From positions 7,626,001-7,690,000 of the forward strand of contig OZ024757.1 of assembly GCA_964016885.1 (NCBI GenBank): 64,000 bases of DNA. Direction: 5' to 3'. Both the position numbers and the translations under genes were made by a program. Positions 7,087 to 63,415 of the stretch are shown one piece after another. Position 1 is the first letter of the stretch. The number at the start of each line of letters is the position of its first letter. The DNA is from Eledone cirrhosa (taxonomy: Eukaryota). The notes beneath the pieces were generated by a model. It saw only the letters and a program-made list of their open reading frames with translations, was not told where the DNA came from and did no database searches.

Positions 7087-7141
<55 letters not shown>

Positions 7142-7179
7142 GATATTAAACAAATGGAAAATATTTATAAAACCATATT

Positions 7180-31936: not shown

Positions 31937-32505
<569 letters not shown>

Positions 32506-32834
32506 TGAAAATTGACTGGCTCCAACTCAGGATCCGATACTCCATTATTTCCTAAATTTCAACTCCGCAGCTCTGTTATTATATTAATTAATTTATTTTA
32601 TAGTTGTAAATCATATTTTTATATGTTACACTCTAAGAATTAACTAAGTGAAATAGCGTAAAAATAAAGGCTTCGTTGGTTTAAGCTATTTTTATAAAGG
32701 ATGCCACAGAATGTACGATATATAATGATTACAATATTTTTTAGCAACAACTCTAGTCCCACACTTTTGAAGGTTTATTATAACATTCTGTGGCACTTTT
32801 GAGCTTGCGCATTTTTCATGTCTAGTATATATAT

Positions 32835-32985
32835 GTTTCTATGTCTTTTTTTCTTCTTTTCTTATATAAATAATAAAAATCTTTACACGCACAAAACCCA
32901 GATCGTACCGTCCTGTACCGTCCTATGCCGTCGTCTGTAATCTTTTTCTTGATGTCAGCCCTTGTGGCCAACAAAGAAATCATTA
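32835..32985 (+). mobile_element. Tx1-like 3' terminal fragment with (ATT)n tail
   Basis: gtaccgtcctgtacc...gcccttgtggccaacaaagaaatc(att)n, resembles 63340-63420. Confidence 0.75.
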
Positions 32986-36000: not shown

Positions 36001-38158
36001 TTCATCTACCACTAAGTTTAGGATATCTACCAAATCTTGTCCTAGCCCGTCAGCATTCATCTCCTCAGTTGCCGTATCTCTGTTCCAGGTATTATTTATC
36101 TCAGCATTCAGATCATTGTCTGTTTCGGATGGTTCCTCCGTTCTCTCGACCTCCCCACCTTCATTTCCCACTGGCTCGCTTGCCTGGCATACTCCACCCT
36201 CCATCTCCAAGCTAATCTCTCTGCTCAGTTCTTCCAGTTCCAGCTCGCTTATCCACCCATTAGTTCTTATTACCCGAGCCTGCCCGGCCAGTTTTTGTTC
36301 ATCTAATTTAAATGGACCAATCTCGTTCCAGATGTTATGCATCCTTTTCCTATAGCCTTTCTCCTTGGGGTTACTCTTCAGGTAACATTGCATAACAGTT
36401 CTATTCAATTCTTTCGTCCAGTTGGTTCTGGTCTCTTTCCTTCTTCTTCTTCCTCCGACACCAGCAGTATTTGGTTGACAGCCAGGTCCCTGCTGCTGAG
36501 TCAGGGAGCACCTGTTGGGTGAGAGTCTGTCACATGACATTCTAGTCTCCATTTCACCGTTATTCGAACTGTTTAGGTTCGACATTTAAACACTCTTATC
36601 GAGGATTGGCGAATGTATGGTTACATAACCACCGGTGAATTACTTGTCTCCGGTGGTTTCGTCACTCCACGTGACTTTTGTGTGGCATTATCACGCTGTA
36701 GACGAACCCAAATAAACAAAGAAACAGGCAGAAAAAAACCCAAAAATGAATAAGCATAAGTTTCATTGTAATGTAGTGTTTGAATGTCTGACTTAGTTTT
36801 TCCCTTCCCTTCTCTGTCCGTCCGTTTGTTTTTCTCTTCATTTTTATTTCCTTTACGTTTTTCGTTGTTGCTGTGCTGCTTTGATTTTGATTTTTTTTTT
36901 TTGATTTTGACCAGGTCATCAATTCAGTCTATTTATATATTTTGATGCCTTCCTCTTTTAGTGAGAATTCTACAATGTAGCAGGAGCTATCGGGAGAGAA
37001 TAGCGGCGGTAGTGACAATGAGGCAGCGGTAGCGGCGATTGCGGTGCTGTGCCAGCAGCAACCAGCAGGAGGTAGTGGGAGAGAATAGCGGCGGTAGCGC
37101 TAATGAGGCAGCGGCGGTGGCGATGTGGTCGTATTATTGTAGCGATGGTGTTGAAGATGGAGTAGAAATTTGAGTCGACTTGACCAGGGTTTTCATCGTG
37201 GCAGTGGTGGTAGCACTGGTGGGAAAATTATCTTTAGTGAAATTATCATTAGTCGCGTATATGTGTTGACATAAATACCTTAATATTGGAATTAAACATT
37301 TTGTGAAAACTAAAACTTGATTTTGATTATTGTTTTTTTTTTTTTTGACCGGGTCATCAATTCAATCTATTTATATATTTTGGTGTTTTCCCCTTTTAGT
37401 GAGAATTCTACAATGTAGCAGGGGGTAGCGGGAGAGAATAGCGGCGGTAGTGATATTGAGGCAGCGGCGGCGGTGGTGGTGGCGGTGCTGTGCCAGCAGC
37501 AACTAGTAGAAGGTAGTGGGAGAGAGTAGCGGCGGTAGCGATAATGAGGCAGTGGTGGTGGTGATGATGTGGTCATATTACTGTAGTGATGGTGTTGAAG
37601 TTGGAGTAGAAATTTGAGTCGACTTGACCAGAGTTTTCATCGTGGTAGTGGTGGTGGTATTGGTGGTGAAATTATCTTTAGTGAAATTATCGTTAGTTGC
37701 GTATATGTGTTGACATAAATACCTTAATATTGGAATTAAACATTTTGTTAAAACTAAAACTTGAGGCAATAGAAATAGTAATTATTATTATTATGCTGAG
37801 ATTAGTGGTGGTGGTGGTAAAATTGCCGTTATCTGGCTGTTGTGTTTAGTGTACACAGAGGGGTAATGGGGTAGGTGGTGTATCTAGTTTCTGATGTTGG
37901 TGAAATTGCTGGTATTTGGCTGTTCTATATAGTGTAGACAGAGGGGGTTTTCTTCCATTTGTAACCATTTTCTCTTTTGAATATAAAATGTATAATACAA
38001 AATTGAATATTTGAGCGATATAACAATATATTGTGGATCCGAATTTTTTGGGACTCAAGCTGGATGTTTTATGCAACATTTGTACTAAGAATTGTTATTT
38101 CACAATTGATTTAAATATGTTAAAAAATCAAAACTTACGGGAGCGATTTCTCGACCTT
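33078..38158 (-). mobile_element. R4/Dong-like RLE retrotransposon family A, full-length, frameshifted (ORF 36585 to 33159)
   Basis: ORF pieces 35665-36585, 34648-35547, 34318-34635 and 33159-34406 are collinear with the intact 1130-aa ORF; (TAA)n on both sides; ~430-bp tandem duplication in the leader. Confidence 0.92.
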
Positions 38159-38178
38159 CTATTATTATTATTATTATT

Positions 38179-40119: not shown

Positions 40120-40120
<1 letters not shown>
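38179..40120 (-). mobile_element. Dong-like family B, 5'-truncated
   Basis: QGDSLSPLLF, FYMDDLK, YKYLG, RKEGGRGL, CPVC..H..C, RHD, RPD; (TAA)n flanks. Confidence 0.92.
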
Positions 40121-40164
<44 letters not shown>

Positions 40165-40170
40165 GTTGTT

Positions 40171-41531: not shown

Positions 41532-41533
<2 letters not shown>
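40171..41533 (-). mobile_element. Dong-like family A, 5'-truncated
   Basis: Matches the 3' 1.36 kb of A; truncated at gtatctggattcc. Confidence 0.92.

Positions 41534-41574
<41 letters not shown>

Positions 41575-41576
<2 letters not shown>

Positions 41577-43506: not shown

Positions 43507-43507
<1 letters not shown>
41575..43507 (-). mobile_element. Dong-like family B, 5'-truncated at the same base as 38179-40120
   Basis: Shared end acaacgggggatattttgaa. Confidence 0.92.
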
Positions 43508-43545
<38 letters not shown>

Positions 43546-43552
43546 GTTGTTA

Positions 43553-44913
43553 TTCCTTGAATCTCAGTCATTGATGTTGGTTAACTGGAAAGTCCGTTGG
43601 AATGAATATCAAGCCACTACCTGCAGCCTCAGATATTCAGGACGTATCGGAGGGTTCTTGCTGTTCCCAGCAAGCATGCCTTTTGAAGCGTTCCAAAATG
43701 CGTGAAGGGGCCGATTTTCTTTAACCATCCCTGGAAACTTTTGGAGATAGTCCCTAGTGCGCCTATGACAATCGGGATCACTTTGACTTCATGGCAGTTC
43801 CAAATCCTTTTTACCTCCCACTTTAGGTCCTGGTATCGGTTAATTTTCTCCCTCTCCTTCTCTTGCACTCTCGTGTCGAATGGGCAGGCCACATCCACAA
43901 TCAGACACGATCTTTTTTCTTTGTCCACAACCACCAGGTCAGGTCTATTGTGTTCCAGTTTCTTGTCCGTCTGTATCCTAAAATCCCACAGCACCTTCAC
44001 CTGATCGTTCTCCGTCACCGCCTCTGGCCTATGCTCATACCATTTCTCAGAATGTGGTAAATTGTTTACTTTGCACAGGTGCCAGTGGATCACCCTGCCC
44101 ATCACATCATGTCTCCAGCCCTTATAGTGGGTCTGGGCTAGGTGTTTACACTCGGATACAATGTGAGCCACAGTCTCCTCTCTCTCTCCACAGATCCTGC
44201 AGAGTGTGCTAGCCTCCTCCTTGTAAACATGGTGCTTCAACCACTTCGTTTTGAGGGCCTGCTCCTGCGAAGCCATTAGCATTCATTCTGTAGCCTTTTT
44301 GAGGTCTCCTCTTCTCAACCAGTTCCATGTCTGTGGATCTGTAAATTCAGTTTTCTCAAAGGAAGGTACTATGAAGGGATTTTCCCTGAAGGCTGCTTTT
44401 TCTCCTTGATGTTATTTCCTCCTTGGACATCCCCTGGCCTACTGTCCCCTCCTTCAGTACAGTTCTGAGCATTGGCTCCTTACTATCAGTCACGTATTTG
44501 TATAGGTTGTTTTTCTCCATCTGAACACTGTCCTCTATGCTGATAAGACCTCTTCCACCCTCAGATCTCCTTAGGTAGAGTCTATCGACATCACTCCTCT
44601 TGTGGAACATGTTGTAGATAGTCAATAGCTTCCTAGTCTTCCTATCCATTTCTTTTTGTTCAGCAACATTCCATCTCAGAATTCCCGCACTGTACCTAAT
44701 AATAGACACAGCTCGGGAATTTACTGCGCTTATGGCATTTCTGCTGTTCAGATGTGACTTCAATACGCTCCTTATTCTCCGAATGTATTCAGTTCTTAAC
44801 AATTCCTTCATTTTTTTGTTCTTTATGCCATCAGCCTCCAGAACTCCCAAATACTTGTATCCTTCCTCAGAGTCAATTTCCTTTATCATTTCACCTGTTG
44901 GTATCTGGATTCC
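43553..44913 (-). mobile_element. Dong-like family A, 5'-truncated at the same base as 40171-41533
   Basis: Same truncation point and the same private frameshift (tcaaaggaagg). Confidence 0.92.
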
Positions 44914-44948
44914 ATTATTATTATTATTATTATTATTGTTATTGTTAT

Positions 44949-47900
44949 TCCTTGAATCTCAGTCATTGATGTTGGTTAACTGGAAAGTCCGTTGGATTGA
45001 ATATCAAGCCACTACCTGCAGCCTCAGATATTCAGGACGTATCGGAGGGTTCTTGCCGTTCCAAGCAAGCATGCCTTTTGAAGCGTTACAAAAAGCGTGA
45101 AGGGGCCGATTTTCTTTAACCATCCCTGGAAACCTTTGGAGATAGTCCCCAGTGCGCCTATGACAATCGGGATCACTTTGACTTCATGGCAGTTCCAAAT
45201 CCTTTTCACCTCCCACTTTAGGTCCTGGTATCGGTTAATTTTCTCCCTCTCCTTCTCTTGCACTCTTGTGTCGAACGGGCAGGCCACATCCACAATCAGG
45301 CACGATCTTTTTTCTTTGTCCACAACCACCAGGTCAGGTCTATTGTGTTCCAGTTTTTTGTCCGTCTGTATCCTAAAATCCCACAGCACCTTCACCTGAC
45401 TGTTCTCCATCACCGCCTCTGGCCTATGCTCATACCATTTCTCAGAATGTGGTAGATTGTTTACTTTGCACAGGTGCCAGTGGATCACCCTGCCCATCAC
45501 ATCGTGTCTCCAGCCCTTATAGTGGGTCTGGGCTAGGTGTTTACACTCGGACACAATGTGAGCCACAGTCTCCTCTCTTTCTCCACAGATCCTGCACAGT
45601 GGGCTAGCCTCCTCCTTGTAGATATGGTGCTTCAACCACTTCGTTTTGAGGGCCTGTTCCTGCGCAGCCATTAGCATTCCTTCTGTAGCCTTTTTGAGGT
45701 CTCCTCTTCTCAACCAGTTCCATGTCTGTGGATCTCTAAATTCAGTTTTCTCAAAGAAGGTACTATGAAGGGATTTTCCCTTAAGGCTGCTCTTCCTCCT
45801 TGATGTTATTTCCTCCTTGGGTATCCCCTGGCCTACTGTCCCCTCCTTCAGTACAGCTCTGAGCATTGGCTCCTTACTATAGGTCACGTATTTGTATAGG
45901 TTGTTTTTCTCCATCTGAACACAGTCCTCTATGCTGATAAGACCTCTTCCACCCTCAGATCTCCTTAGGTAGAGTCTATCGACATCACTCCTCTTGTGGA
46001 ACATGTTGTAGATAGTCAATAGCTTCCTAGTCTTCCTATCCATTTCTTTTTGTTCAGCAACATTCCATCTCAGAATTCCCGCACTGTACCTAATAATAGA
46101 CACAGCTCGGGAATTTACTGCGCTTATGGCATTTCTGCTGTTCAGATGTGACTTCAATACGCTCCTTACTCTCCGAATGTATTCAGTTCTTAACAATTCC
46201 TTCATTCTTTTGTTCTTTATGCCATCAGCCTCCAGAACTCTCAAATACTTGTATCCTTCCTCAGAGTCAATTTCCTTTATCATCTCACCTGTTGGTATCT
46301 GGATCCCGTTACTTCTGCTCAACCTACCCCTCCTCATCACAATGACTCCACATTTACCAATACCAAACTGCATACATATATCACTGCTGAAAATACGGAC
46401 AGTGTCAACAAGCACATCCAACTCCTTCTCACTTTTCCCGAAGAGCTTAAGATCGTCCATGAAGAGGAGGTGATTGATGGTAAGCTCTCCCCTTCCCAAC
46501 TTGTATCCTGCTCTCACTTTTCGCAGCATAATGGTCAAGGGCATCAGGGCAAGGACAAACAACAGAGGGGACAGGCTATCTCCCTGGAAGATACCTCTCT
46601 TGATCTTCACGCTTCCCAAGGATACTCCAGTTGATGTCAACTCTGTCTCCCAGGACCCCATACTCCTGCCCAGCACCTGTCTGATGTTATCTGCCACCCT
46701 GAAGATCTCCAGGCTTTTGGTGATCCAGGAATGAGGCACCATGTCAAATGCCTTTCTGTAGTCTATCCATCCCATGGCAAGATCAGTGTGTCTCCTCCTG
46801 CAATTCCCCATTACCATCTTATCAATAAGTAACTGGTCCTTTGTACCACGTGACTTCTTTCGGCATCCTTTCTGTTCGTCCGGCAACAAGTTGTTTGTGT
46901 GGAGGTGATGGTAGATTTCCTCAGACACAATGCTCGTCAACAGTTTCCACATTACGGGCAGACATGTGATAGGTCTATAGTTGGTAACATCATTACCCTT
47001 GATTCGGTCTTTCATTATCAGAACTGTGGTACCTTTTGTCAACCACTCTGGCACCTCACCCGACACCAAGCAGTCATTGAACATGGCCGTCAGCTTCGGG
47101 TGGAGGGATGTTAAATGCTTAATCCAATACCCCTGCACACCATCTGGGCCTGGTGATTTCCAGTTGGTTAGTTTTTTGGCTTGCCCCTTAAGAGTTTCAA
47201 CTGTGATACTCAAATCAGTCTGTTGCTGTGCCTGCTCACCGATCTCCCTCTGTACTGTCTCAATCCACCCTGCCTGGGCATTGTGTCTAACATCCTGCTC
47301 CCATATTCCTCTCCAGAATGTTTTAGCTTGTTCCGCCCCAGGGATCAAGTCGTTGCCTCTTTCTTTCCCCTCAAGCTGTCCAAACAGCATCTTCTGGTTG
47401 TTGTCGAACATGCGGTTCTGTTTATACTGACTGACTCTGTTCTCGTATCGCCTGATTTTGGCACTCTTTGCTACAATGCGTTGCTTCAATTCCTCTATGA
47501 TAATATTTAGCTTTTTACTCCTAGTTTTGTATTTTATTTCCAGTCTATTTTTAGTGCCTATGTTTTTTAGTGTCCCATTCAGTAGTGACTCAAGCTTTCC
47601 TATGTCATTTCTCATTTCCCCGATTTGCCCACTCAGTCGCTTCTTCCACCACGGCTCTGCTCTTTCTTGTCTGTTGTTTCCTCTCGCTTTTATACCAAGT
47701 AGTTTCCTCACCGTATTTGCTGTTGCTTTGAGGATATTGTTGCACTTGTGAAGACTGCTCGCCTCAAGGTATGGGATGACTTTGTTTACCTTAGCTGTTG
47801 TTTCTTTTAACTTTTTCCTGTCTACAAATCTTAGGTTCATAGGTCTCCCACTATCATTGTTCAACTCATCTACCACTAAATTTAGGATGTCAACCGAATC

Positions 47901-49473
47901 TTGTCCTAGCCCGTCAGCATTCATCTCCTCAGTGGCCGTATCTCTGTTCCAGGTATTATTTATCTCAGTATTCAGATCATTGTCTGCTTCGGGTGGTTCC
48001 TCCGTTCTCAGGACCTCCTCACCTTCATTTCCCGCCGGCTCGCTTGTCTGGCATACTACACCCGCCATCTCCAAGCCATTCTCTCTGCTCAGTTCCTCCA
48101 GTTCCAGCTCGCTTATCCACCCATTAGTTCTTATTACCCGAGCCTGCCCGGCCAATTTTTGTTCATCTAATTTAAATAAACCAATCTCGTTCCAGATGTT
48201 ATGCATCCGTCTCCTGTAGCCCCTCTCCTTGGGGTTACTTTTCAGGTAGCATTGCATAACAGTTCTATTCAATTCTTTCGTCCAGTTGGTTCTGGCCCCT
48301 TTCCTTCTTCTTCTTCCTCCAACATCAGCAGTATTTGGTTGACAGTCAGGTTCCTGCTGCTGAGCCAGGGGGCACCTGTTGGGTGAGAGTCTGTCACATG
48401 ACGTTCTAGTCTCCATTTCACCGTTATTCGAACTGTTTATGTTCGATATTTAAACACTCTTATCGAGGATTGGCGAATGTATGTTTACATAGCCATCTGT
48501 GGATCCGCCATCCCACTTGGCCCTTGTGTGGCATTATCACCACGCTGTAGACGAACACAAATAAACAAACAAACACACGGGCAGAAAGGGCCCCAAAAAT
48601 GAATAAGCATAAGTTTCATTGTAATGTAGTATTCGAATGTCTGACTTAGTTTTTGTTTTTTAAGTTTTACTTTTTCCCCCCTCTTCTCTGTCCGTCCGCC
48701 TGCTTCTCTCTTCATTCTTATTTTCTTTACGTTTTTGGGGTTTCTTTTTTTGTTTTTGTTTTTCTCTGTTTTTCTCGTTTTTTACTGTTGTTGCTGTGCT
48801 GCTTTTGTTGTTTGTTTTTTCTTTTTTCTTTTGAGTCTATCTATATATTTTGATGCCTTCCTCTTTGTTAGTAGTAGGAATTCTATAATGTGGAAGTGGT
48901 AGCCAGCAGAGACTGGCGGCGTTGGCGATACTGAGACAGTGGTGGTGGTGATGTCGATACCGAGGCAGTGGTGGCGGTGATGCGACCGTATTACTGTAGT
49001 GATGGTGCTGTAGCGGTGGCAGCAGCAGTGAAGGAGTCAGGGGGTGGTGGCGGCGGTGATGGGATAGTGGTGGTAATGATGGCCGTAGTGAGCGGTGGCG
49101 GTGAAGGTGAAAATGCTGTTGTGTTTAGTGTACACAGATGATGGGGTGGGTGGTGTATCTAGTTTCTGGTGTTGGTGAGTTTAGCTGTCCTATATAGTGT
49201 AGCCAGAGGAGAGGAGGGGGGGGGGGGTTCTTCTTCTTCCATTTATAGCCATTTTTTTTTGGATATACAGTGTACAATACAAAGTTGAATATTTGAATAT
49301 TTGAGCCTTATAACAATATATTTTGGGTCCGAATTTTTTTGGGGCTCAAGCCGGGTGCTTTACGTAGCATTTGTACTAAGAGTTGTTATTTCACAAATGA
49401 TTTAAATATGTTAAAAATTCAAAACTTACGGGAGCGATTTCATGACCTCCGTCACCTCGTGCGTCTTCTTCCC
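44949..49473 (-). mobile_element. Dong-like family A, full-length, potentially active copy
   Basis: Intact ORF, ~1-kb leader, (TAA)n on both sides. Confidence 0.93.
45024..48416 (-). CDS. R4/Dong-type single ORF: N-terminal domain, RT, CCHC knuckle, restriction-like endonuclease (1130 aa)
   Basis: NYRPITCL, EQKGC, WIDYRKAFDMVPH, GIFQGDSLSPLLF, LFMDDL, RSEGGRGL, CRIC..HIVSEC, RHD, NRPD..DVACP, K..RYQDL. Confidence 0.93.
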   Translation of the reverse strand: METRTSCDRLSPNRCPLAQQQEPDCQPNTADVGGRRRRKGARTNWTKELNRTVMQCYLKSNPKERGYRRRMHNIWNEIGLFKLDEQKLAGQARVIRTNGWISELELEELSRENGLEMAGVVCQTSEPAGNEGEEVLRTEEPPEADNDLNTEINNTWNRDTATEEMNADGLGQDSVDILNLVVDELNNDSGRPMNLRFVDRKKLKETTAKVNKVIPYLEASSLHKCNNILKATANTVRKLLGIKARGNNRQERAEPWWKKRLSGQIGEMRNDIGKLESLLNGTLKNIGTKNRLEIKYKTRSKKLNIIIEELKQRIVAKSAKIRRYENRVSQYKQNRMFDNNQKMLFGQLEGKERGNDLIPGAEQAKTFWRGIWEQDVRHNAQAGWIETVQREIGEQAQQQTDLSITVETLKGQAKKLTNWKSPGPDGVQGYWIKHLTSLHPKLTAMFNDCLVSGEVPEWLTKGTTVLIMKDRIKGNDVTNYRPITCLPVMWKLLTSIVSEEIYHHLHTNNLLPDEQKGCRKKSRGTKDQLLIDKMVMGNCRRRHTDLAMGWIDYRKAFDMVPHSWITKSLEIFRVADNIRQVLGRSMGSWETELTSTGVSLGSVKIKRGIFQGDSLSPLLFVLALMPLTIMLRKVRAGYKLGRGELTINHLLFMDDLKLFGKSEKELDVLVDTVRIFSSDICMQFGIGKCGVIVMRRGRLSRSNGIQIPTGEMIKEIDSEEGYKYLRVLEADGIKNKRMKELLRTEYIRRVRSVLKSHLNSRNAISAVNSRAVSIIRYSAGILRWNVAEQKEMDRKTRKLLTIYNMFHKRSDVDRLYLRRSEGGRGLISIEDCVQMEKNNLYKYVTYSKEPMLRAVLKEGTVGQGIPKEEITSRRKSSLKGKSLHSTFFEKTEFRDPQTWNWLRRGDLKKATEGMLMAAQEQALKTKWLKHHIYKEEASPLCRICGEREETVAHIVSECKHLAQTHYKGWRHDVMGRVIHWHLCKVNNLPHSEKWYEHRPEAVMENSQVKVLWDFRIQTDKKLEHNRPDLVVVDKEKRSCLIVDVACPFDTRVQEKEREKINRYQDLKWEVKRIWNCHEVKVIPIVIGALGTISKGFQGWLKKIGPFTLFVTLQKACLLGTARTLRYVLNI

Positions 49474-49535
<62 letters not shown>

Positions 49536-49537
<2 letters not shown>

Positions 49538-52500
49538 AGTTGCATTTATCTTGCTTTATGTTCATACGAGTTATCACCAAGTCACAACCAGTGCCCTCAA
49601 GAGACAACAAGGTACGCCATGTTCAAGAAAGAACATACATACTCACACATGCATCTTTAGTGTTTAGACTTGTGATGTACTTATATTGACAGAATCTTCC
49701 TTAGTATATGGGCAGTTCCCATTAGTACTCTCTTTTGTATTTCTCCTATACGCGGGTTTCCTGGGATTTGCGATAAGTAATCATTAGACCCCTTAGGTAT
49801 CATTCCGAGAGCGCCTACAACTACTGGTATTCTTTTAGTTCTCAATTTCCACATTTTTCCAATTTCTATCTCCAGGTCCTTATACTTGCTCAATTTTTAA
49901 AATGTTTTTATAGATACATTCTTGTCTATTGGAACAGACATATCAATTAGCAGGCATACCCTCTTTTTAAAGTCCTTCAATATTATATCAGGTCTATTTG
50001 CATCTATTTTTCGGTCTGTATGGATGCTAAAGTTCCACAAGATTGAGATGTGATCTTTTTCAAGTATGGGAGGTGGTTGATGCTCCCACCAATTCTTTTG
50101 ATGGGGCAGGTCAAAATGCTTACACATTATCCAATGTATGTATTGTGCAGCTCTGTCATGCCTGTTTAGGTATTTGGTTGGAGCTATAGGACTGCACATT
50201 GAAATTATATGGTCAATGCTCTCTGGTTGTTTTTTGCATACACGGCATAATGGGCTGCACCCATTTTTTATTATGTTGGCTTGGTAATTTTTTGTTGGCA
50301 GACACTCATCTTGTGCTGATATAATCAGTCCTTCAGTCTCCGATTTCAGTCCAGAGGATGCCAACCACTGATGGGTTAAAGTTTTGTCAACATCAGGATT
50401 GTTAGCTCGCTCTGCGTATTTTCCATATAGAGGCTTTTCTTGCCATTTCTTAGCCAGTTTCTGTAGCAGTTCTTTCTTTGCAGTTACTTTTACCTGCTTT
50501 GCTTTTTCTGTGTTTTCCATTTCACCAGTAAATGGGACTTCTGAAATTTGTAGTCCATTACTGTATCTTTGTGCATCTTTTGTAATGGAATATGATCTTT
50601 TAATGCTTTCGTGTTTCAAAACGAGTTTGATCATCCAATCATGTGATTCCCTTAGATATGTAGATAATCCAATTGTTGGAGTTTTCAACGCAATGTCTAA
50701 CTGGATTAACCCACGTCCTCCTTCTTTCCTAGGGAGGTATATTCTATCTATATCTGCCTTATGGTGATGATTCTGTGCATGGTTAAGAATTTTCGAATTT
50801 TTGTATCGAGCCTACGGATCTCTGTGCTTGACCAGTTGATGACATTGTAACTGTAGGTTACTACTGGTATGGCAAGCGTGTTTATGGCATCGATCCTATT
50901 CCTTGCATTCAATTCCGTTCTTAAGATTGTTCTTACTCTGCGGTAACATTCCTTCCTTATCCTTTCCCACATTGTCGAGTGCTTGATTCCGTCTCCTTCA
51001 CAAACACCTAGATATTTGTAAGTTTTTTCTTGATCAAGTTCTCTTATCACGTTCCCCCGATCAAGATTAATGTCTGAACTCTTCAGCAGCTTTCCTCTGG
51101 TGAACGTTGCTTTGGCGCATTTATCTAGTCCAAACTCCATTTTAATGTCATCACTGAACTGCTCCACAGTGGATAATAGCCCTTGCAATTGTTCGTCATT
51201 TTTTGCAAATAGTTTCAGGTCATCCATGTAGAACAGGTGATTAATGGTTTTGTCATAGACTTTATATCCATGTTTTGTCTCATTGGGCATTTTACTTAAT
51301 GGTATAAGTGCCATGCAGAATAAAAGCGGTGATAAAGAGTCACCCTGAAAAATTCCACAATTAATATTAACTTCTCCAGCTTCCAGTGATTTTGTTTCAC
51401 TATTCAAACGGAGTGGCGTTTTCCATGTCTTCATACTGAATGACAAAAACCTCCTGACAACGGGTGATATTTTGAAAATCTCTAAACATTTTTCAATCCA
51501 ACTGTGTGGCAAACTATCGAATGCTTTTTTATAATCTATCCAAGCAATCGATAGATTTTTGTGTCTATTATGACAATCTTCCAGTATCATTTTGTTAACC
51601 AGAAGCTGATCCTTACCGCCATATGAGCCTCGTTTACACCCTTTCTGCTCAATGGGAAATAGGTCATTTGTTATCAGGTGGTCATATGTGTATTCAGTTA
51701 GGACTGATGTTAAAATTTTATACATTGTGGTCAAGCAAGTTATCGGTCTGTAATTTTGGGGATTGTTTGTTTCATCATTCTTCGGAAGGAGGAATGTAAT
51801 GCCGTTAACTAGCCATGATGGTATCTTTTCTGACTCCTTAACTATTTCATTGTAAAGTTGGGCTAACAGCTCATTAGACTCAGTGAGGGTATTTATCCGA
51901 AAGTTTTTTATTTTGTCTTTTCCTGGGGATTTCCATTTGCTGGTTTTTCTTAGAGCCAAGCGCAACTGTTCAACTGTTATATTTTCCCATATTTGTTCCT
52001 CAAGGTGAGCTGTATCTTTCATTTGTCTGTCTATCCATGGGGCATGTATGTTATGAACTTTTTCTTCGGCCCAGAACTTTTTCCAGAATTCTTGCACTTC
52101 CTCCATGGGTGGTATTGATTTAGCAGTTATTGTTGACTTACCAATATTTCAGTAGAAGTTTCTTTGGTTGTTTTTGAACATATTATTGTCCTTATAGAAT
52201 CTAGATCGTTTTTCAAAGCGCCTGATACGAGCAGCTTTGGCCGACACTTTTTGCTTGATTATTTCTATCAGCATGTCTATGTCACATGTTGATTTTATAC
52301 TGTACTTTTTTTTCAATTTTCTAAGTTTAGTTTGTTTAACATGTTCACCTACTTTATAGTTTGTTAAAATTTCTATGTCAGATCGGAGAAGGTTTATTTG
52401 TCGATTGATGTTCTCTTGCCAAGTATATTTCTTGTGGGAATTCCTTTGTTTTTTCATTTTCACTCCACATAAGTGAGTGGTGACTTTAGCCGATGCATAA

Positions 52501-53495
52501 TAGAGATGATTTAAATCAGTAATGTTTAGTTTGTTTGTGATGATAATGTTTTTGAGAATTATGTTAGTCTTGTGTATTATCTTTTGGTTCTGTTTGGAGT
52601 TCTGGATCTTAGGGAGGGTGTCTCGTTGCCCCATGTCAGATTCTTTCATTTTCATCCATTCGATCATAATTTCATCCTTCAAGTTGGCAAGTTCATTCTC
52701 ATTCATTTCTTTATCATTTACGATCTCATTATTTTCATTTGGAGTTTCATCCTGAGCATGCACTCCCTCCACTTTTTCGCTCCTTTCTTTAATTTGTTCT
52801 GTTGCCAGTGATTCCGCCCCAACTCTGGGATTCGAAGTGTTACAGTTTACCTCGTTTTCACTGACACGTGCTTCATTTTCCCTTCGCTGACTTTGTGCTA
52901 CTAGCTTGATCTGATCAATTTCTATATCAGTTAGTAACTTTTTTCTTACAATATTTCTTCGTATATTGGCTAGTTTGTTACTGTCAATATAGCCTCTGTT
53001 TTCGGGATGTTTCTTTTTTCAGTTGATATATGTTTGTTCTGTATTCGATGTATTTGATGGGTAGTACATGGCAGTGTAGAAAGCCTCAAGGACTTCTTTA
53101 TTATCTTCCCTTGACCATTTTTCTCTCTTTTTCTTTGGATTTCTTGGTGGTGAGCATGGAGGGCCAACAGTAGGAGTATTCCGGTTATGGGAGGTCTCCA
53201 GCTCCGAAGTGATGGGAAGGTTTGAACCATTAGCTGATTTTTCGAACCCAGTCTGGTTCCTCTCTGAGGGACGCGGCCCTTTTTTACCCGGGTGACGGCC
53301 GATGCGGTATGAGATTTTATCATTAGACATTTACTTTATTTTGTCGCGTTTTATCCTTATCCGCCAAGGGGTAATCATTTCGTGTTACCACTTCTAGAAC
53401 GAGTGTCAACCAAGACTAGAGGGGTCGTTCTCCCCTAGAGACATGGCTATTCCCCGCCGGCCGCCATCCCGGTATTTCTTGGTCACGGGGTTTTC
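49536..53495 (-). mobile_element. Dong-like family B, full-length, frameshifted (ORF about 53330 to 49681)
   Basis: ORF pieces 53019-53330, 52149-52772, 50748-52106, 49897-50688, 49681-49893 with the same domain order as A but clearly diverged protein. Confidence 0.9.
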
Positions 53496-53589
53496 TTTTT
53501 TTTTTTTTTTTTTTTTTAATTAAATTGTTATTATCATGAGTGGTTCCTTAATGTGAGCATTGCGTGGCTTAAGAATGAAATTATTAATA

Positions 53590-54360
53590 ATTGTCTCCAC
53601 TCCAGGCACAAGGCCAGCAATCACCCAGTGCATTACAATAATATAATATACTTTTTGTTGTAGTTGGCTGTTATTGTTGTTGGCTATGCCGGTGGTGGTG
53701 CCGGGGCTTTTTATATTGTTGGTGAGGAAGGGGTGAGCCAGCAGTCCCATAATTGTTGATGTAGACGTTTGGCCGTGGCAAGGTCACCAAGTCAGTCTAT
53801 TTATATCTTTTGCTAGCCTCTCTCTTGTCTAGTGCTACCGTCACCTTCCCTTTTCTCTCTCAAGTTAACAGGGGAATAGTGTCAGTAGCATTGAATGAGT
53901 GGTGGCGGCGATGATGGATGTGGTGGGGTGGTGGCAGCGGTGGTGTTGTGGTTACTGATATAGTATCTATGAGTTTGTGTTCGTATGTTTAATATATATT
54001 TTCATTATATTTTGTGTTGACATATTCCCGTAAAATTTGAATTAAACATTTTTTAAAATTTGAGACAATAATACTAGTAATTATTATTATGATGCTGGTG
54101 ATATTATATTTAGTGTGATGGGATAGGTAGTGTATCAAGTGTATCAAGTTTCTGGTGTAGGTGAAATTGAAATTGCCGCTGTTCTATATAGTGTAGACAG
54201 AGGGTGTTTTGTTCCATTTATAACCATTTTCTTTTTTGAATACAAAATATATAATACAAAATTGAATATTTGAGCGATACAACAATATAATATGGATTCG
54301 AAACTTTATGGGACCTCATTCGGTGCCTTTATGCAACATTTGTGCTAAGAATAGTTCTTT
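53590..54360 (-). mobile_element. Copy of the family-A 5' leader module followed by a SINE-type 3' tail
   Basis: 54180-54355 closely matches 37921-38100 and 49190-49390; 53600-53635 is the SINE tail gcactgggtgattgctggccttgtgcc. Confidence 0.7.
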
Positions 54361-54364
54361 CTTA

Positions 54365-54502
<138 letters not shown>

Positions 54503-54710
54503 GGCGACCTACGTAGTAAATCGTATCATCGTGAGCTCCGCAAAGGTTTGTTATTTCCGTTTGTTAAAAATTGTCATTTATGGAAATTTTTTATTGTTAA
54601 CTGTTTATAAGCGCACATACATTGTTTTCCGAAAAGGACACCCAAAAAGATTGGGGCCTTGTGCCCAAAATTTAAACTTTTATTATTATCAAACAATTTC
54701 TTTGAAAAAA

Positions 54711-56683
54711 ATGGCTAATTCACCTCTGCACCAAGCAGCTGAAAGCCTTCCTCACAAAATAACACCTCACACCGACACCACCATTGTAAATGTTACTACG
54801 TTTGCCAACACAAAAAAAAATATAAGCACTAGCAATATTTTAAATTTGTCTCAGGCAGACATACATTTCCCGCCATTACCAATGACTGCAGGTGTTAAAG
54901 CCTCCACCACCACCACCACCACCACCATCGCGACAACCACCACTACCACCACCACCGCGACAACAGAAACAAAAGAAGAAAAAAATAAATTAACTCGTGA
55001 TGTCGAAATGAAATCAAGCAAAATGGACTCTTCCCCACCAAAGACGACTGACGTTACCACCACCACAACTGAAACTAAAATTAATATTAACGATAGCAAC
55101 ACCAACAACAATGACATTATAACCCCCCCCCCCTCAGTTTCGCCAGAGTAGCAAAACAATTCGAAGCATTTACGGTAACTCAGGAGGATTTAGAAAATGC
55201 CTAACAAATGGTAAAGAAAGATGGGTACAGGGTCAACCTCACCCCCCACCTAATAAAATGGAGCATCGGCGCCTATGCACCGTGTCGTATAGAACAATAA
55301 ATGTAAAATCGCGCCGAGTTGAACGGGCATCCGAGTCCCAAATCCAAAAAGCTTTGGGACATGTGTGGGCAAGAAAAACCCACATCAGACGTGGGCAAAA
55401 GTATGGAACAGTGGACGTGTTCTTTGAAACACCAGAGGAGGCTAGAGAACACTCCATGGCCCCATTAAGAAGTGACGACTTCACACTCGTCCCAAGCTAT
55501 TGTGGCCAGAGACTCGTAAAGATCAGGGTGACCCACGTTCCACCGGCCATCGAAATTCCCTGGCTAATAGAAGCCAACACAAAGATAATAGCAATAGCAA
55601 AAGAAAAGCAGGAGAACTGGTGCGGATCTGGGATGGAGCTCCTGATCCAAGCGGACCAAAAAAGCATTGAGGAGATCCCAGAGGTAATAGACCTCACTGA
55701 CGGCAGCCACCTCACGGTAATTGGCGAGGGCAGAAGACCTAGGTGTGTCGTTTGTGGTGAAGGAACCCACCTAAGGGCTTTCTGCCCTCAGGCTAAAAGG
55801 TTGAGGCCACCTCTCCAACCCACCCCAGTGACACAACCATCAACACCACCAGTAGCAGAGATGGCAGCAACAACTGTAGCAGCAACAACAGAAGCAACTA
55901 TAACAGCAACAACCCCAGCAACAGTAGAAAAACCAACACCACCACCACCACCAGCAAAACCAACACCACCACCACCCAACGCTTCAGAACTAGCACCAGC
56001 GCCTACACCATCCACCACGCCACAACCAAAACTAACGGCTGTGGAGGATTTTCCACTCCCCGGCCTATCACAACTGGAGACAGATTGTGACGACGAGGAG
56101 TGGGAAACGTATCCGGAAAAAAAAAAGAAACCAAAAAAGAAAAAATTCTCTTCCTTCCCCCTCCAAAAACAAAATACAGAGGGAAACAAATAAATTAAGA
56201 AACAAAAAAGTTAGGACAGATATGCCACCATCCACACCAGCATCACCAACCCCATCAACCCAAACACCAACACCATCACCATCATTAACCCCAACACCAC
56301 CATCACCTACACCACAAAAGTCATCAAAATGCGAAACAGAAACAAACGCACAACAAACGCAAACAAAACAGAACAACCAAAACGATACACACTACACAGC
56401 ATTAAATTTGAACAACAAGCAATTATTACACTACATCTAACACAACACCAGCATCACAGAAAAAGACAACAAAACAACCCCAAAATTCACACCACCTCCA
56501 CACATACAAATCACTCGCATCACACAGAAAACGTACATGACACTAAAACAAAAATTCCCCAAAGACATCGGAGACTTCCGACAAGCACTCTCCAGGAGGA
56601 TTTATAAGGACATCCTTCCTGAGGAGGCCACAACCAGTGAAAAGGATGGAAAAACCGTCCTTCCCCTACGAGAAGTAAGGTAA
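54711..56683 (+). pseudogene. Tx1-like ORF1 (RRM-like region, CX2CX4HX4C knuckle, Thr/Pro-rich), with stops and frameshifts
   Basis: MANSPLH start; RRGQKYGTVDVFFETPEEA; CVVCGEGTHLRAFC. Confidence 0.8.
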
Positions 56684-56717
56684 GTGGTCTTTCCCATCTT
56701 TTCCACTCCTTTTCAAC

Positions 56718-59115
56718 ATGACCTCACTCAGAATAGGCAGCATAAATGCGCGTGGCTTGGGGTCGTCATGGAAGCAGGGCCACCTGCTCAACGACCTCTG
56801 GTCACTAAACATAGATGTAGTGGCCATCAGCGAGACCAGAATCTCAGAAGCACAGGCTTTCGCACCGATCTTCGGCGGCTACGATGTGTACGCATCTCCA
56901 GCCGCCCGGGATCGGGGGGAGGAGTTGCTGTGCTTTTTCGGAGAGGTTTGGATCTTGCCATACGTGCCATCTTCCTGGACACAGAAGGTAAGTTGGTGGT
57001 GCTGGACGTGACCAGCGGAGACGGCCAAGCTTTCAGGTTAGTGGCCGTCTATGCCCCGACAGGAGCAGGGCGGCGTGATTTCTTCCGGCGTCTGGAGACC
57101 TTTCTTGGAACGTCCCGCTCTTTAGTGTTAGTGGGCGACTGGAACGGGATCTTAGATGCACGCTGGGATTGTGTGGGATTAGTGGATAGGGAAGGAGGGT
57201 GCAAGTGTCTCACCAACCTGCTCAGACGTTTTGAACTGTCTGACAGGTACCGAATGGATTTCCCGAATGTACCAATGTGGACTTGCACAAATCGCATAGG
57301 GTCATCCAGATCATATCTAGATAGAGTATTTTGTAGGGAAATAGATAGGTCTAGCATAGGCTGTCCACAATTCAAAATAGTCAGCTACACGGACCACGAA
57401 TTCGTGATCTGTGTGCTTGACTTAGATAGGCTTCATAGGCGAGGACCCGGCTACTGGAAGCTAAACGCGTCCTTACCATCGCGCAAGGCCTACAGAGACC
57501 GGATTAGCGAACTAGTTAAGCGGGCGTTGACGGGGGCCATCGTCAACATCAAGTGGTGGTTTGCTCTGAAAAGAGCAATTAGAATAGAGTCCATTAGGTT
57601 TAGTAAGACTTTAGCAATAGAGAAAAATAGAGCAGAGGGAGAATTAGTTAGAAAATTAGATGAGGCGCTTAGCAAAGGCATCGCGACCGACGTACTTGCG
57701 GCGAAATTGGCCCTTGACCAATTCTTCAATGCAAAGCACGAAGGCTGCGTTGTCAGAGCTAGGGTGCGTGCTCTCAGACACGAGGGGACGAAAGCCGTTC
57801 AATGGGCCCGAGTGGCGGAGGCACGTCGTGGCAACAAAGCCACGATCCGGTCTTTGGTGGACCACGACGGGCGCATGCTACTCGATCCCGGGCAAATGTG
57901 TGAAGCTTTTCAGCGACACTTCGCTCAACTGTTCGGGGGCAGTGGCGGGCCGGATCGAGGGATGGACTTTAGTGTCTACCTCGACGGACTGCCGCGGCTT
58001 TCGTCCACTGAGGCGATAACAACCACTGAAGTACGGGATGCAATGACTAGTTGCACAAGGGGTAAATCGCCTGGTTTGGATGGTCTGCCCTATGAACTTT
58101 ACGTACAAATGCCAAACTTGTTCGGAGGCCTCTTGGCGGACGTCTACTGCAACTGGCAACAGAACGGGAGAAATCCCTGCTCTGTGAGCCGAGGAGCGGT
58201 GGCGCTGCTGAGAAAGGATCCGAACAAGGGGGATAACAAAGATATTTTTAGGCCCATAACTCTGCTAAACACAGAGTTCAAGATTTTGGCCAAGGTGCTA
58301 GCAAAGAGGTTGGCGCTTGTCGTTGGTGGTCTGGTGGAAGAGGCACAGACATGCGCCATTCCCGACAGATCCATCCACGACAACCTCCACCTCATGCAAT
58401 ACATCGTAGAGAGGGTAGCTAGGGAACCTGGCACGGGTGGGTCTTTGATCAATTTAGATCAGTCGAAAGCCTTCGATAGGGTCGACCATCGTTACCTAGA
58501 GGCAGTCTTGAGGGCGGCTGGTTTTGGGCCCGTCTTCAGAGGCTGGATCGCTGCCATGCACAACAACATCTGCTCTGTGGTGAGAGTGAACGGTCACCTT
58601 TCGGAACCGTTCAACATCATGCGCTCGGTCCGCCAAGGATGTCCCCTCTCGTCCCTCTTGTACGTATTGACTCTCGAGCCATTACTGCACAAACTGGAGA
58701 CGTTGAGGGGGATCCCGCGCGAACTAGGATGCGGAAGATCCGTGTCAGCATATGCCGACGATGTCACCGTAGGGGTGTCGAACGCCAAACACATCGAGGC
58801 GATCGGCACTACACTAAGAGAATACGAAGCGGTGACAGGAGCAATGATCAACCAGGAAAAGTCAGTGGGCCTGCAGCTCGGCACCTGGAGAGGCAGGTCC
58901 ATGCCGTCCAACAGCGTCGTCGGGCGCTGGACAGACGGACCGGTTAAATTGCTAGGGGTCTAGTTCGGTCCAGACCTCCAGACGGACAAAAACTGGGACG
59001 AGGTGACGAGCAGGGTGGCTTCTCTCACCCAGAAATGGGCCGAGAGGAAGCTATGCCTGAAAGGTCGAGCGGTGGTGGCTAACGCGTACATCGCGTCCGT
59101 CATCTACTACCGCCT
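56718..59115 (+). pseudogene. Tx1-like ORF2: APE endonuclease + RT; frameshift near 56905, stop at 58963
   Basis: SINARGL, SET, GGGVAVL, VYAP, GDWN, SYLDRV, YTDH, WKLNAS, KSPGLDGLP, RPITLLN, LDQSKAFDRVDH, RQGCPLS, AYADD. Confidence 0.92.
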
Positions 59116-60406: not shown

Positions 60407-63400
60407 GAATGCTATAGTTGACGGAGGCTCGGCTCTGTAAGGTATTGCACATTTTGAACGCTATAACAATTGTAAATTGTTAAAACTTTTACCAACTTGT
60501 AGACAAAAACACCCTCCTCCTCGTGAGACGGGTCTTTCTGCCTGTTATTTGGCCCTTCGGGGTTAAATAACTGCTTATTAGGGTTTTGTGCCCAATATTT
60601 AATTTAAACAAAAAAAAACAACATGGCTACGAAAAAGAAATTTCATAGGTCACTCCCACTCATTCCGACTTCTTCTTGCTCAATCGTCACTACAGCAGAG
60701 AGAAGATTGTCTCTCTCCCTCCCTTCTTTAAATGTGTCTCTCTCCCTCCCTTCTCTTTCGCAAGCGGCGACAGAAAAGAAAAGTCTCGTGCAAAGCGTGC
60801 AAGATTTCTCCACGACAACAACGACGACGAAACAGGTGTGCGGGAAATACGAAAACCCATTTCATTCGTCTGACGTCAGGAATAATAGCAGTAGCAGCCG
60901 TAATAACAACAGCAACAGTGACAATGAAAACAACAGCAGCAGCCGCAACAGCATCAGCAGCAGCATAAACAACAACAGCATTAGCAGCAGCAACAACAAC
61001 AACAACCACAGCAACAGCGGCGGCGGCAGTAGTCGTAGTACCTGCAGCAACAACAAAAGTAACAGCAGCTCAAAACTCAAAACGCCAACTAACATAAGAC
61101 TGCTAAAAATAGCACAGAAACAATACACAAACACTAAAACGAAATTCCCCAACGCAGTTGGTAATTTCAGAGACCTAGGAGGTACTATCAACCGAAGAGT
61201 ATATTCGGACATACTCATAGAAGAGCCGATGACCAGTAGAAGGGACGATTCAACGGTCCCTTCACCAGACGATCAAGTGAAAAGGGATGTAAAATCCATC
61301 CCTCCTCTACGAAAAGTACGGTAAGAGGTCTTTCTCATCTTTTCCACTCTATTTTAAACATGACCTCACTCAGAATAGGCAGCATAAATGCGCGTGGCCT
61401 GGGGTCGTCATGGAAGCAGGTTCACCTGCTCAACGACCTCAGGTTATTAAACATAGATGTAGTAGCTAGGGAACCTGGCACGGTTGTGTCCTTGATCAAT
61501 TTAGATCACTCGAAAGCTTTCGATAGGGTCGACCATCGTTACCTAGCGGCAGTCCTGATGGCGGCTGACTTTGGGCCCGTCTTCAGAGGCTGGATCACTG
61601 CCATGCACAGCGACATCTGCTCTGTGGTGAGAGTGAACGGTCACCTGTCGGAACCGTTCAACATCATGCGCTCGGTCCGCCAAGGATGTCCCCTCTCGTC
61701 CCTCCTGTACGTAGTGACTCTCGAGTCATTACTGCACAAACTGGAGACGTTGAGGGGCATCCCGCGCGAACTAGGATGCGGAAGATCCGTGTCAGCATAT
61801 GCGAACGATGTCACCGTAGTGGTGTCGAACGCCAAACACATCGAGGCGATCGGCACTACACTAAGAGAATACGAAGCGGTGACAGGAGCAATGATCAACC
61901 AGGAAAAGTCAGTGGGCCTGCAGCTCGGCACCTGGAGAGGCAGGTCCATGCCGTCCAACAGCGTCGTCGGACGTTGGACGGACGGACCGGTTCAATTGAT
62001 AGGGGTCTGGTTCGGTCCGGACCTCCAGACGGACAAAAACTGGGACGAGGTGACGAGCAGGGTGGCTTCTCTCACACAGAAATGGGCGGAGAGGAAGGTA
62101 TCCCTTAAAGGTCGAGCGGAGGTGGCTAACGCGTACATCGCGTCTGTCATCTGCTACCGCCTGACCGTCGTACCTTGTCCTAAGCCTCGCCTGACTGCGC
62201 TGGAGCGTTTGCTCTTTCGCTTTTTGTGGAAGGGACGCGCTCCGATGGTCAGGCGGTCCATCTGTTGTCAACACCCGCTACGTGGAGGGCTGGGCATGCC
62301 GTGGCTGATGATGCGCAGGCACGCGCTCAGGCTACGACATCTCCACCTCCTCCTCGACGGTGATCAGGTGTGGTCGCCGTTTGCTAGACACGTTTTTCCC
62401 CAGCTCCTTTCCTTGACGGAGCTGCAATCCTGGGTCAAGCGAATACCGAGAGGGAGCGCCTGGAGACTGGAATCTCTTCAGGCGCTCACACCCCTCGACC
62501 AATCGGGCAATGTGATCGGTGGAAACTCCACCTCGGCGTTCTATAGAGGATTAGTGGAGGGGAAGAGCGACGACGTACTTGGGGAACCTCTAGGCGTCGA
62601 CGAAAATTAACTAGCCAATCTCTTCGGAAGAACTTTCGGGCCAGGGCCTATGGACAACTTCCAGAAATCTCTGGCCAGGCAGTGCTACCGAGGAGCCTTG
62701 CCAGTTTGGGATAAACTCTACAGGCATGGAGGTGCCGTCAGCCGGGCATGTCCAAGATGCGCGCAGGGCGACGAAACCGTCCTGCATGCACTCGTCCAAT
62801 GTCCGAAAATTGCTGACTTGTGGGTTTATGTCGAACACCTGCTGTCGCGTTTAGGACGGATCCGGCTATCATCTGAGTCCATCGTAAGGATTGCCCCGCT
62901 CTCCTATTTTAGCCGGGAAGGGCAGACAGTTTTTATCTGTCTGGTGGCCATGGCGAAAGAGGAAGTATGGTGGACACGTTTGAAAGGGCTGAAGACGAGC
63001 ACTTACCTCTTCGGTGATGCTCTGATTGACTTTTTCAAATTTCATTTGAAAAGGAAAATCAGAGTAGAGAGGGAAGTGCTCTCTTCCCAGCATTTTGTTG
63101 AAAGATGGGTGAGAGAAGCAAGAATGGCCCGAGTGAATGGGCCTACTCTGAGTATATATCTGTAAATTAAAGGTGGAAAACTGGGAGACGGCACTTGCCT
63201 TGGTGGTCAGGGTCACTGTGGCTTTTTATTGGGATTTCTCCACAAATGTCCCTCCGAAGTCTCCCCCCTATTGGGGAATTTTTCATTTTTATTTTTGGTT
63301 ACATCCTCTGTTTTTGTTTTTTACACGCAGAAATGCCCATTTGTACCGTCCTGTATTGTCCTGCACTGTCCTTAATGTCTACTTTATGTAAAACCTTGTG

Positions 63401-63415
63401 GTTAATAAATAAATC
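60407..63415 (+). mobile_element. Tx1-like LINE, internally deleted derivative with both termini
   Basis: Short low-complexity ORF1 60623-61324; ORF2 61360-63165 lacks APE and early RT, keeps later RT and CPRC..HALVQC; (ATT)n on both sides. Confidence 0.9.

What the first reader, a model, noticed from the sequence alone, without database searches (positions are those of the whole stretch)
53590..54360. The same leader module sits upstream of the diverged family B but ends in a SINE tail
Seen: 54180-54355 is highly similar at DNA level to the A leaders (37921-38100, 49190-49390), and 53790-54080 matches further leader blocks, although A and B ORFs are not alignable by eye as DNA. Here the module is followed by the SINE 3' tail (gcactgggtgattgctggccttgtgcc..gagacaattatt), about 70 nt of other sequence and a poly(A) run before B starts. 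Inference: either A and B share an exchangeable promoter cassette, or leader + tail is an independent bipartite non-autonomous element that can drive whichever element lies downstream in the array.
Basis: partly seen in the sequence, partly recalled or inferred. Interest (0 to 1): 0.75.

Follow-up and report, generated by a model that had tools for sequence, protein, structure and literature searches.

The report
Two retrotransposons share a captured leader
Two distantly related jumping genes in this genome carry the same roughly 580-base front end; in one of them it is joined on through scraps of other repeats, and that join recurs in many copies and in two other organisms, which likely records a jumping gene picking up a neighbour's front end and, probably, its on-switch.

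Summary
A and B are TAA-abutting single-ORF RT + restriction-like-endonuclease LINEs, only 34-35% identical as proteins, yet the leader head upstream of B is 88% and 83% identical to the two A leaders. The chimera is not unique to this locus. Single contigs from two other organisms run from B's ORF through the poly(A), spacer and SINE tail into the leader side. In a same-species run that side is about as deep as B's own 5' end (70,000 vs 87,000). No excess of leader+tail without B was seen, and rare variants lack the SINE tail, so an independent bipartite element is unlikely. A B-type relative from another organism starts, right after (TAA)n, with the motif found at 53490, so the 872 nt upstream are a derived add-on. 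Best reading: B captured an A-type leader plus nest debris by 5' transduction, and the leader likely supplies the promoter (untested; no RNA data). Relatives carry other heads, including tRNA-like ones, which suggests recurrent head capture. It works like L1 5'UTR recruitment or SVA_F1, but here between two deep R4/Dong-like lineages.

The parts
54139..54362 (-). Leader head, homologous to the heads of both A leaders; starts 56-86 nt inside the A 5' ends, right after (TAA)n(GAA)n
53827..54138 (-). Leader middle: AT-rich block 54097-54013 (in A37, absent in A49) and ACC-rich low-complexity block
   Evidence: local score 106 vs A37, 27 vs A49
53781..53826 (-). Last block shared with A leaders; homology to A ends at about 53781
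   Evidence: 84.8%, E 4e-7; 39/45 vs A36
53637..53780 (-). About 145 nt of unknown origin, no A counterpart, multi-copy at B-like depth, ending in an ATT-like tract
   Evidence: 53689 summed depth 70,273 in X1; on X4 contig 9 and (to 53725) X7 contig 17
53589..53636 (-). 48-nt 3' tail of the window's SINE family, a later insertion
   Evidence: joints 53588>53637 (3 X1 contigs, depth 47.6), 53569>53637 and 53558>53637 lack it
53518..53588 (+). Spacer; probably a decayed antisense Tx1-type 3' tail (an A-type 3' end scores equally for this copy)
   Evidence: X1 variant motif hits Tx1 3' ends at ranks 1, 2, 4 and 6 among distinct sites from 12,750 windows
53491..53517 (-). Poly(A) run (A22-G-A4)
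   Evidence: sequence
53380..53490 (-). Ancestral B 5' end: conserved segment predicted to form a nested pseudoknot; no Rfam match
   Evidence: (72-74% to L031/L036; L018 E 7e-5, right after (TAA)n), 82, 88, 14
49537..53330 (-). B ORF (broken by stops and frameshifts; RT, CCHC, restriction-like endonuclease) and 3' UTR ending at (TAA)n
   Evidence: N-terminus matches relatives
48450..49473 (-). Leader/5'UTR of A copy A48 (1024 nt)
36586..38159 (-). Leader/5'UTR of A copy A36, with an internal ~440-nt duplication
54363..54502 (.). (GAA)n(TAA)n tract (B strand) between the B 5' end and a head-to-head Tx1-like LINE

Best explanation
The 872 nt upstream of B's old 5' end (54362-53491) are joined to B in many copies (shown up to 53822, inferred beyond), and their first ~580 nt are homologous to family A's leader; B likely gained them by 5' transduction, when a B copy sat downstream of an A-type leader fragment and nest debris and read-through RNA from that leader became a new master copy, and the leader likely serves as the promoter of both families. 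Shown: A-B leader homology; deep protein divergence; the multi-copy join; SINE-tail-less variants; an ancestral short 5' end in relatives. Inferred: direction A to B; the order of events (leader fragment, antisense Tx1 tail, B capture, SINE-tail insertion in a B sublineage that then dominated); promoter function. The SINE tail, spacer and poly(A) are passengers, not the terminus of a separate element.
For: (1) Single contigs span the join: X4 contig 9 covers 52600-53822 (19 differences, 10 gaps, depth 31.1 vs 3.4-14.6 for the other seven listed X4 pieces); X7 contig 17 covers 52600-53725. (2) X1 summed depth is 70,273 at 53689 vs 86,747 at 53444 and 71,774 at 53304; the window's own letter at 53689 has depth about 89; 250 of 254 X21 reads from 15 starts carry the other letter. 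(3) Near-identical B-type leader pieces (1-2 differences per 100-195 nt) reach 54358 in X4, and two overlap contig 9 at 53796-53822. (4) A36 vs A48: dS 0.142, dN/dS 0.30 over 1142 codon columns, so two separately selected A lineages both keep the leader, with 5' ends 30 nt apart. (5) A and B each sit among their own relatives on opposite sides of a 100%-supported RT split (92 of 242 rows used; RT identity 43.8%), so 83-88% leader identity cannot be shared descent of whole elements. (6) B-type relatives L018 and L007 have 140-175 nt UTRs right after (TAA)n, L018 starts with the 53490 motif, and none of 80 loci holds the leader. (7) B's leader shares the AT block with A37 but not A49, and debris lies in B, not A.
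Against: No promoter or transcript evidence exists. The head is not more conserved than synonymous sites (88% vs about 87%), and its fold shows 0 of 35 pairs with compensatory change. No single listed piece links B to the head 54139-54361. X1 depth drops to 10-27k over 53839-54133, so many copies may stop short or differ there. The tool dropped 9 loose-end rows at 53484-53529, so B copies starting at 53490 without the add-on could not be counted. Summed contig depth is no copy number, and most rows were not shown (149 letter rows, 544 loose ends, 4677 pieces). The X4 and X7 contigs could each be one orthologous locus. Direction rests on three leader copies.
Confidence: 0.65

Rival explanations
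1. Passenger transduction: the add-on is copied with B only because one master copy was transcribed from an outside promoter; the leader has no promoter role in B.
For: Head conservation is near neutral; the add-on holds 12 ATGs and debris; depth falls toward the 5' end; precedent in SINEU-2B 5' extensions (PMC4494074, passages).
Against: Two A lineages at dS 0.14 and B all begin within 86 nt of the same head position, which suggests the head itself sets the RNA 5' end.
Confidence: 0.17
2. Leader plus tail is an independent bipartite non-autonomous element that drives whatever lies downstream; in a variant, the A-like head plus the spacer read as an A-like 3' end is the bipartite unit.
For: X1 depth peaks at 54193-54251 (60k); diverged leader variants exist (loose ends at 54098 and 54242, X21 joint 53666>53783); the spacer's top window match is the A 3' end, score 35 vs 14.5+-3.2.
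Against: No excess depth next to the tail (X4 31-33 vs B 31; X1 58-70k vs 72-107k); contigs run unbroken into B; some copies lack the SINE tail; the head peak is expected from A leaders laid at 80% likeness; the tail-less variant matches antisense Tx1 ends best.
Confidence: 0.08
3. The join was multiplied by DNA-level tandem or segmental duplication of one nest, not by retrotransposition.
For: The window holds recent tandem duplications (38160-41568 vs 41556-44949, 98%).
Against: Depth is uneven and declines toward the 5' end; tail-less and deletion variants exist; the join is in three organisms.
Confidence: 0.07
4. Unique chance stack: a truncated A relic, SINE tail and Tx1 tail that merely lie upstream of this one B copy (my own first reading).
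For: The anatomy is typical nest debris; a similar tail-to-tail Tx1/SINE junction lies at 28481-28569.
Against:: 39 X1 contigs and depth 70,000 at 53689; spanning contigs in two other organisms.
Confidence: 0.03

Closest known systems
Dong / R4-clade non-LTR retrotransposons (Dong, DongAg, DongBg)
   Same: Single ORF with RT, CCHC and restriction-like endonuclease motifs; 3' ends at (TAA)n. Dong targets TAA, also in a snail (PMC3812793, passages).
   Different: R4 and Dong self-cleave at their 5' end by an HDV-like ribozyme (PMC3774820, passages and section 15); here a ~1-kb leader is copied with the element and no canonical HDV-like fold was found. R4 vs HERO placement was not tested.
Mammalian L1 5'UTR recruitment
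   Same: A lineage gains a new 5' region while keeping its ORF (PMC5872511, passages).
   Different: There within L1, mostly giving non-homologous UTRs, and described as mammal-specific among L1s; here two RLE lineages 34% identical end up sharing one, with capture debris kept.
SVA_F1 (MAST2 exon capture) and SINEU-2B 5' extension
   Same: Upstream sequence fixed as the 5' part of a family (PMC12593883 and PMC4494074, passages).
   Different: Those are non-autonomous, and SVA_F1 arose by splicing to a host exon; here a coding LINE took another LINE's leader.
Shared LINE 5' ends: Nimb/RTE ~70-bp head and LP-SINEs; Pr77 of L1Tc/ingi
   Same: Different LINE families share a 5' extremity with proposed (LP) or shown (Pr77) promoter role (PMC4758252 section 10; PMC4035085 passages).
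   Different: Those are 70-77 bp and old; here about 580 nt at 83-88% in the head, so recent, and no separate SINE-like family was seen.
Bipartite non-autonomous LINEs (Bov-A, RTESINE, Vingi and R2 derivatives)
   Same: A LINE 5' part followed by a tail-like sequence.
   Different: They move alone and join 5' and 3' ends of one LINE; reported only for RTE, Ingi, Vingi and R2 (PMC5786205, passages). Here the unit was not seen apart from B.

Membership tests
R4/Dong clade (A and B) | Single ORF: RT, then CCHC knuckle and PD-(D/E)xK endonuclease | tested here: met
   Pfam RVT_1 E 6e-22 (A) and 4e-28 (B), weak zf-RVT; RPD..D motifs read directly in the translations
R4/Dong clade (A and B) | Insertion at (TAA)n | tested here: met
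   All 5 A and 5 B 3' termini in the tract list abut TAA tracts (target or tail not separated)
R4/Dong clade (A and B) | RT phylogeny places it in R4 rather than HERO or NeSL | not tested
   No labelled reference sequences were available; trees only separate A from B
R4/Dong clade (A and B) | HDV-like ribozyme at the 5' end | tested here: inconclusive
   Strict descriptor 0 hits; Rfam none; a descriptor needing the catalytic strand hit only 1 of 36 relatives' 5' regions, so there was no positive control; a different pseudoknot-like motif is conserved at 53490
Bipartite non-autonomous LINE (leader+tail) | 5' part from a LINE 5'UTR | tested here: met
Bipartite non-autonomous LINE (leader+tail) | 3' part from the same LINE's 3' end | tested here: inconclusive
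   The SINE tail is not A's 3' end; the spacer scores 33 vs an A 3' end and 32-33 vs Tx1 ends; the variant favours Tx1
Bipartite non-autonomous LINE (leader+tail) | Copies independent of the autonomous ORF | tested here: not met
   No excess depth over B; contigs run into B; a minority class cannot be excluded
tRNA-derived SINE or LP-SINE | Pol III head or SINE body ahead of the tail | tested here: not met
   Only 48-50 nt of tail match the SINE; no tRNA hit; no A/B box pair by a regex that also misses most of this window's SINEs
5'UTR recruitment (L1 / SVA_F1 type) | Derived 5' segment upstream of the ancestral 5' end, present in many copies | tested here: met
5'UTR recruitment (L1 / SVA_F1 type) | The recruited segment drives transcription | not testable with these tools
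   Needs RNA 5' ends or a reporter assay
Tx1-derived leader | Homology to a Tx1 5'UTR or ORF1 | tested here: inconclusive
   Score 58 vs 27.9+-4.5 shuffled, collinear up to the ORF1 ATG; rank 1 of 2110 windows from the Tx1 side but third from the leader side, nhmmer E 32; no ORF1 relic against 150 homologs

The most novel reading that the evidence does not exclude
TAA-targeting R4/Dong-like LINEs have no promoter of their own and persist by serially capturing upstream heads in their target nests: tRNA-like Pol III heads in some relatives, and here a leader (perhaps first taken from a Tx1 5'UTR) passed between two deep lineages. The conserved pseudoknot at the old 5' end is an undescribed self-cleaving RNA that is silenced when a head is captured.
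Probability: 0.25. Interest if true: 0.8.

Novelty: new variant of a known kind. Interest (0 to 1): 0.58.

Why it matters
How microsatellite-targeting LINEs of the R4/Dong type are transcribed is unsettled: the model is co-transcription plus ribozyme release, but a TAA tract supplies no promoter. This locus shows such a family carrying a long leader taken from a distant co-resident family, with the capture scar still legible. It gives a defined 220-nt promoter candidate and a 60-nt RNA motif to assay. It also suggests promoter turnover of the L1 kind in an ancient retrotransposon group, and two families sharing one regulatory target for host silencing.

Tried and rejected
No whole genome was held, so the genome-wide table could not be made. 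Earlier-findings look-ups were empty. No RNA holder was listed; this says nothing on expression. The leader pattern found 0 matches in metagenome and viral contigs. A Tx1 ORF1 word-index search found nothing; phmmer found 271 relatives, 150 listed, none matching the leader in translation beyond E 0.008. Low-complexity matches of 53727-53663 to Tx1 ORF1 were rejected because three different Tx1 regions score alike. A post hoc relaxed HDV fold at 53484 (0 of 3000 shuffles) was rejected as probably the wrong register, since relatives conserve different pairings. A generic pseudoknot descriptor did not discriminate (47 plus-strand vs 44 minus-strand hits). One search had one helix out of register and was redone; with 4 sequences neither has power. 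The same motif in A's proximal UTR (48553) came up with a tailored descriptor that also gives many false hits but not with the covariance model, so it stays tentative. Model R1 found no convincing new members beyond its training set in 23 of the 80 loci (best other hit E 0.014 near a 3' region). My first reading, a unique relic, was rejected.

Full report
Setting. The right half of the window is a nest of non-LTR retrotransposons that meet at TTA/TAA tracts. Families A (45024-48449 and 33159-36585, minus strand) and B (49537-53490, minus) are single-ORF elements with RT, a CCHC knuckle and restriction-like endonuclease motifs. Tx1-like elements lie on the plus strand (54503-59115, 60408-63415); that label rests on APE + RT domains and recall. 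The host is probably an octopus or relative; this is recalled repeat resemblance, not a test. No genome was held.

Observation. It is confirmed. The head 54139-54361 is 88.1% and 82.5% identical on gap-free columns to the A37 and A49 leaders, and the two A leaders are 88.2% alike. Blocks at 54013-54097 and 53781-53826 also match A. A and B proteins are 34-35% identical with almost no DNA similarity. In an RT tree of 92 rows (a subset of the 240 fetched homologs plus A and B) each sits among its own relatives across a 100% split; the two homolog sets were picked by separate searches, which favours such a split. Reading B's strand from 54362: shared leader (to 53781), 145 nt unknown, SINE tail (53636-53589), spacer (53588-53518), poly(A) (53517-53491), B core from 53490, ORF from 53330.

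The leader belongs to A. The two long A copies differ by dS 0.142 with dN/dS 0.30, so they come from separately selected lineages, while the B 3' pieces beside them are 97-99% alike. Both carry the leader, starting 30 nt apart relative to a shared landmark. The leader is therefore A's 5'UTR, not a duplicated flank (inference).

The chimera is multi-copy and attached to B. Four of the 23 listed runs were laid on 52600-54358 at 80% likeness. In organism B one contig spans 52600-53822 at depth 31.1; in organism D one spans 52600-53725 at depth 5.38. In organism A (X1) summed depth at 53689, on the leader side of the SINE tail, is 70,273 with 39 contigs carrying T where the window has C; B's own 5' region gives 86,747 (53444) and 71,774 (53304). 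In raw reads 250 of 254 show the same T, from 15 starts. B-type leader pieces with 1-2 differences continue to 54358 in X4. Hundreds of copies or more are likely, though the tool warns that summed depth is no copy number. Against: no listed piece links B to the head in one span; X1 depth is only 10-27k over 53839-54133; 9 loose-end rows at the poly(A) were dropped; and 149 letter rows, 544 loose ends and 4677 pieces were not shown.

Leader+tail is not a separate element. Depth beside the tail does not exceed B's (X4 33 and 31 vs 31). Three X1 contigs skip exactly 53589-53636, and two further joints lack the tail with an older-looking spacer. The tail is thus most simply a later insertion in B's 5' region. 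The spacer in this copy scores equally against Tx1 3' ends (32-33) and an A 3' end (33-35). The tail-less variant's letters hit Tx1 3' ends at ranks 1, 2, 4 and 6, so an antisense Tx1 tail is the better reading.

B's old 5' end is 53490. Among 80 metagenome loci of relatives none holds the leader. The segment 53490-53380 is 72-74% identical to L031 and L036 and matches L018 (E 7e-5), where it begins right after (TAA)n; L007 also has a short UTR after (TAA)n. The motif can pair as a nested pseudoknot: 91.7% of 48 cells pair against 24-49% when slid, with one compensatory pair in four sequences and no statistical power; L018 shows further compensatory changes by eye. Rfam has no match. Whether it self-cleaves is unknown. 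If it did so efficiently in B, the add-on could not be copied (inference).

Heads vary across relatives. Five loci (L011, L020, L021, L022, L037) start, just after TAA, TAAA or TA repeats, with a Pol III A/B box pair; the same expression gave 7 hits in all 265 kb on both strands. Only L011 passes as tRNA-like in Rfam and ARAGORN (1 of 34 loci scanned by ARAGORN). L031 and L036 share a 120-nt head ahead of the motif. These are single contigs, so family-wide attachment is inferred.

Mechanism. Both families insert at the same tracts and stack up. A B copy came to lie downstream of an A-type leader fragment and a Tx1 tail; RNA started in the leader, ran through B and was retrotransposed, founding a B lineage with a 1032-nt 5'UTR, close to A49's 1024 nt. 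A SINE tail then inserted in a sublineage that became the common form. Direction A to B is suggested by the AT block shared with A37 but not A49 and by the debris lying in B. Promoter function is inferred only from the clustered 5' ends. The head is no more conserved than synonymous sites and shows no structural covariation. A Tx1 origin of the leader stays open at about 0.3.

Known systems. R4 and Dong release themselves by HDV-like ribozymes (PMC3774820; passages and section 15). Dong targets TAA (PMC3812793; passages). HERO is a further RLE clade with some microsatellite-specific families (PMC4640811; passages). L1 recruits new 5'UTRs (PMC5872511; passages). SVA_F1 and SINEU-2B fixed upstream sequence (PMC12593883, PMC4494074; passages). 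Short 5' ends are shared between LINE clades (PMC4758252 section 10; PMC4035085 passages). Bipartite LINEs are reported from four other clades (PMC5786205; passages). An octopus repeat annotation counts Dong-R4, Hero and Tx1 families, with no 'chimer' or 'nested' in text or supplement (PMC13282606; passages and supplement term search). PMC10886601 (passages) added nothing. Ten searches listed no paper whose title or abstract opening described leader sharing or head capture in R4/Dong-like LINEs; most hits were seen as listings only. Repbase Reports, consensus libraries and most subscription papers are outside the library and may already hold such leaders.

Verdict. A real and unusual structure: a new variant of 5' capture, between two deep lineages of TAA-associated LINEs, with the scar preserved. 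Confidence in the mechanism 0.65; interest 0.58.

Noticed in passing
L011 84-168, L020 ~92-165, L021 ~10-85, L022 ~24-100, L037 ~85-160: Relatives of A and B begin right after simple repeats with tRNA-like Pol III heads placed ahead of the ORF; only L011 passes tRNA finders.
   Followed up: partly
L031 873-997, L036 394-515: Two A-type loci with different outer flanks share a ~120-nt head between (TAA)n and the conserved 5' motif.
   Followed up: partly
L020-L023, ORF starts: These score as A-type in RT but their ORF-start DNA matches B's (79-88% over ~50 nt), a hint of further module swapping.
   Followed up: no
window 53320-53220 (-): B's first ~30 codons are 72-82% conserved as DNA in distant relatives, more than RT identity would suggest; possible RNA element inside the ORF.
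   Followed up: no
window 48553-48490 (-), 36700-36615 (-): A's proximal UTR may hold the same pseudoknot topology; seen by eye and by a tailored descriptor, not by the covariance model.
   Followed up: partly
window 54503-54720 (+) vs 38159-37960 (-): The Tx1-like 5'UTR aligns weakly and collinearly with the leader head up to the ORF1 ATG.
   Followed up: yes
window 60408-63415 (+): Tx1-like copy with both ends kept but the ORF1 core and the first half of ORF2 missing.
   Followed up: no
window 4117-13382: Inverted pair of Penelope-like elements (RT and GIY-YIG-like ORFs by eye; 4528-6981 vs 11763-9279, 96.6%).
   Followed up: no
window 36881-37764: Internal ~440-nt tandem duplication (89%) in the A36 leader.
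   Followed up: partly
window 38160-44949: Recent tandem duplication (98%) of units made of B and A 3' parts.
   Followed up: no
window 28481-28569: A second tail-to-tail junction of a Tx1 3' end and a SINE tail.
   Followed up: partly
window 31598-31944 vs 32651-32841: 184-nt exact direct and 166-nt inverted duplications around a TA-rich minisatellite.
   Followed up: no
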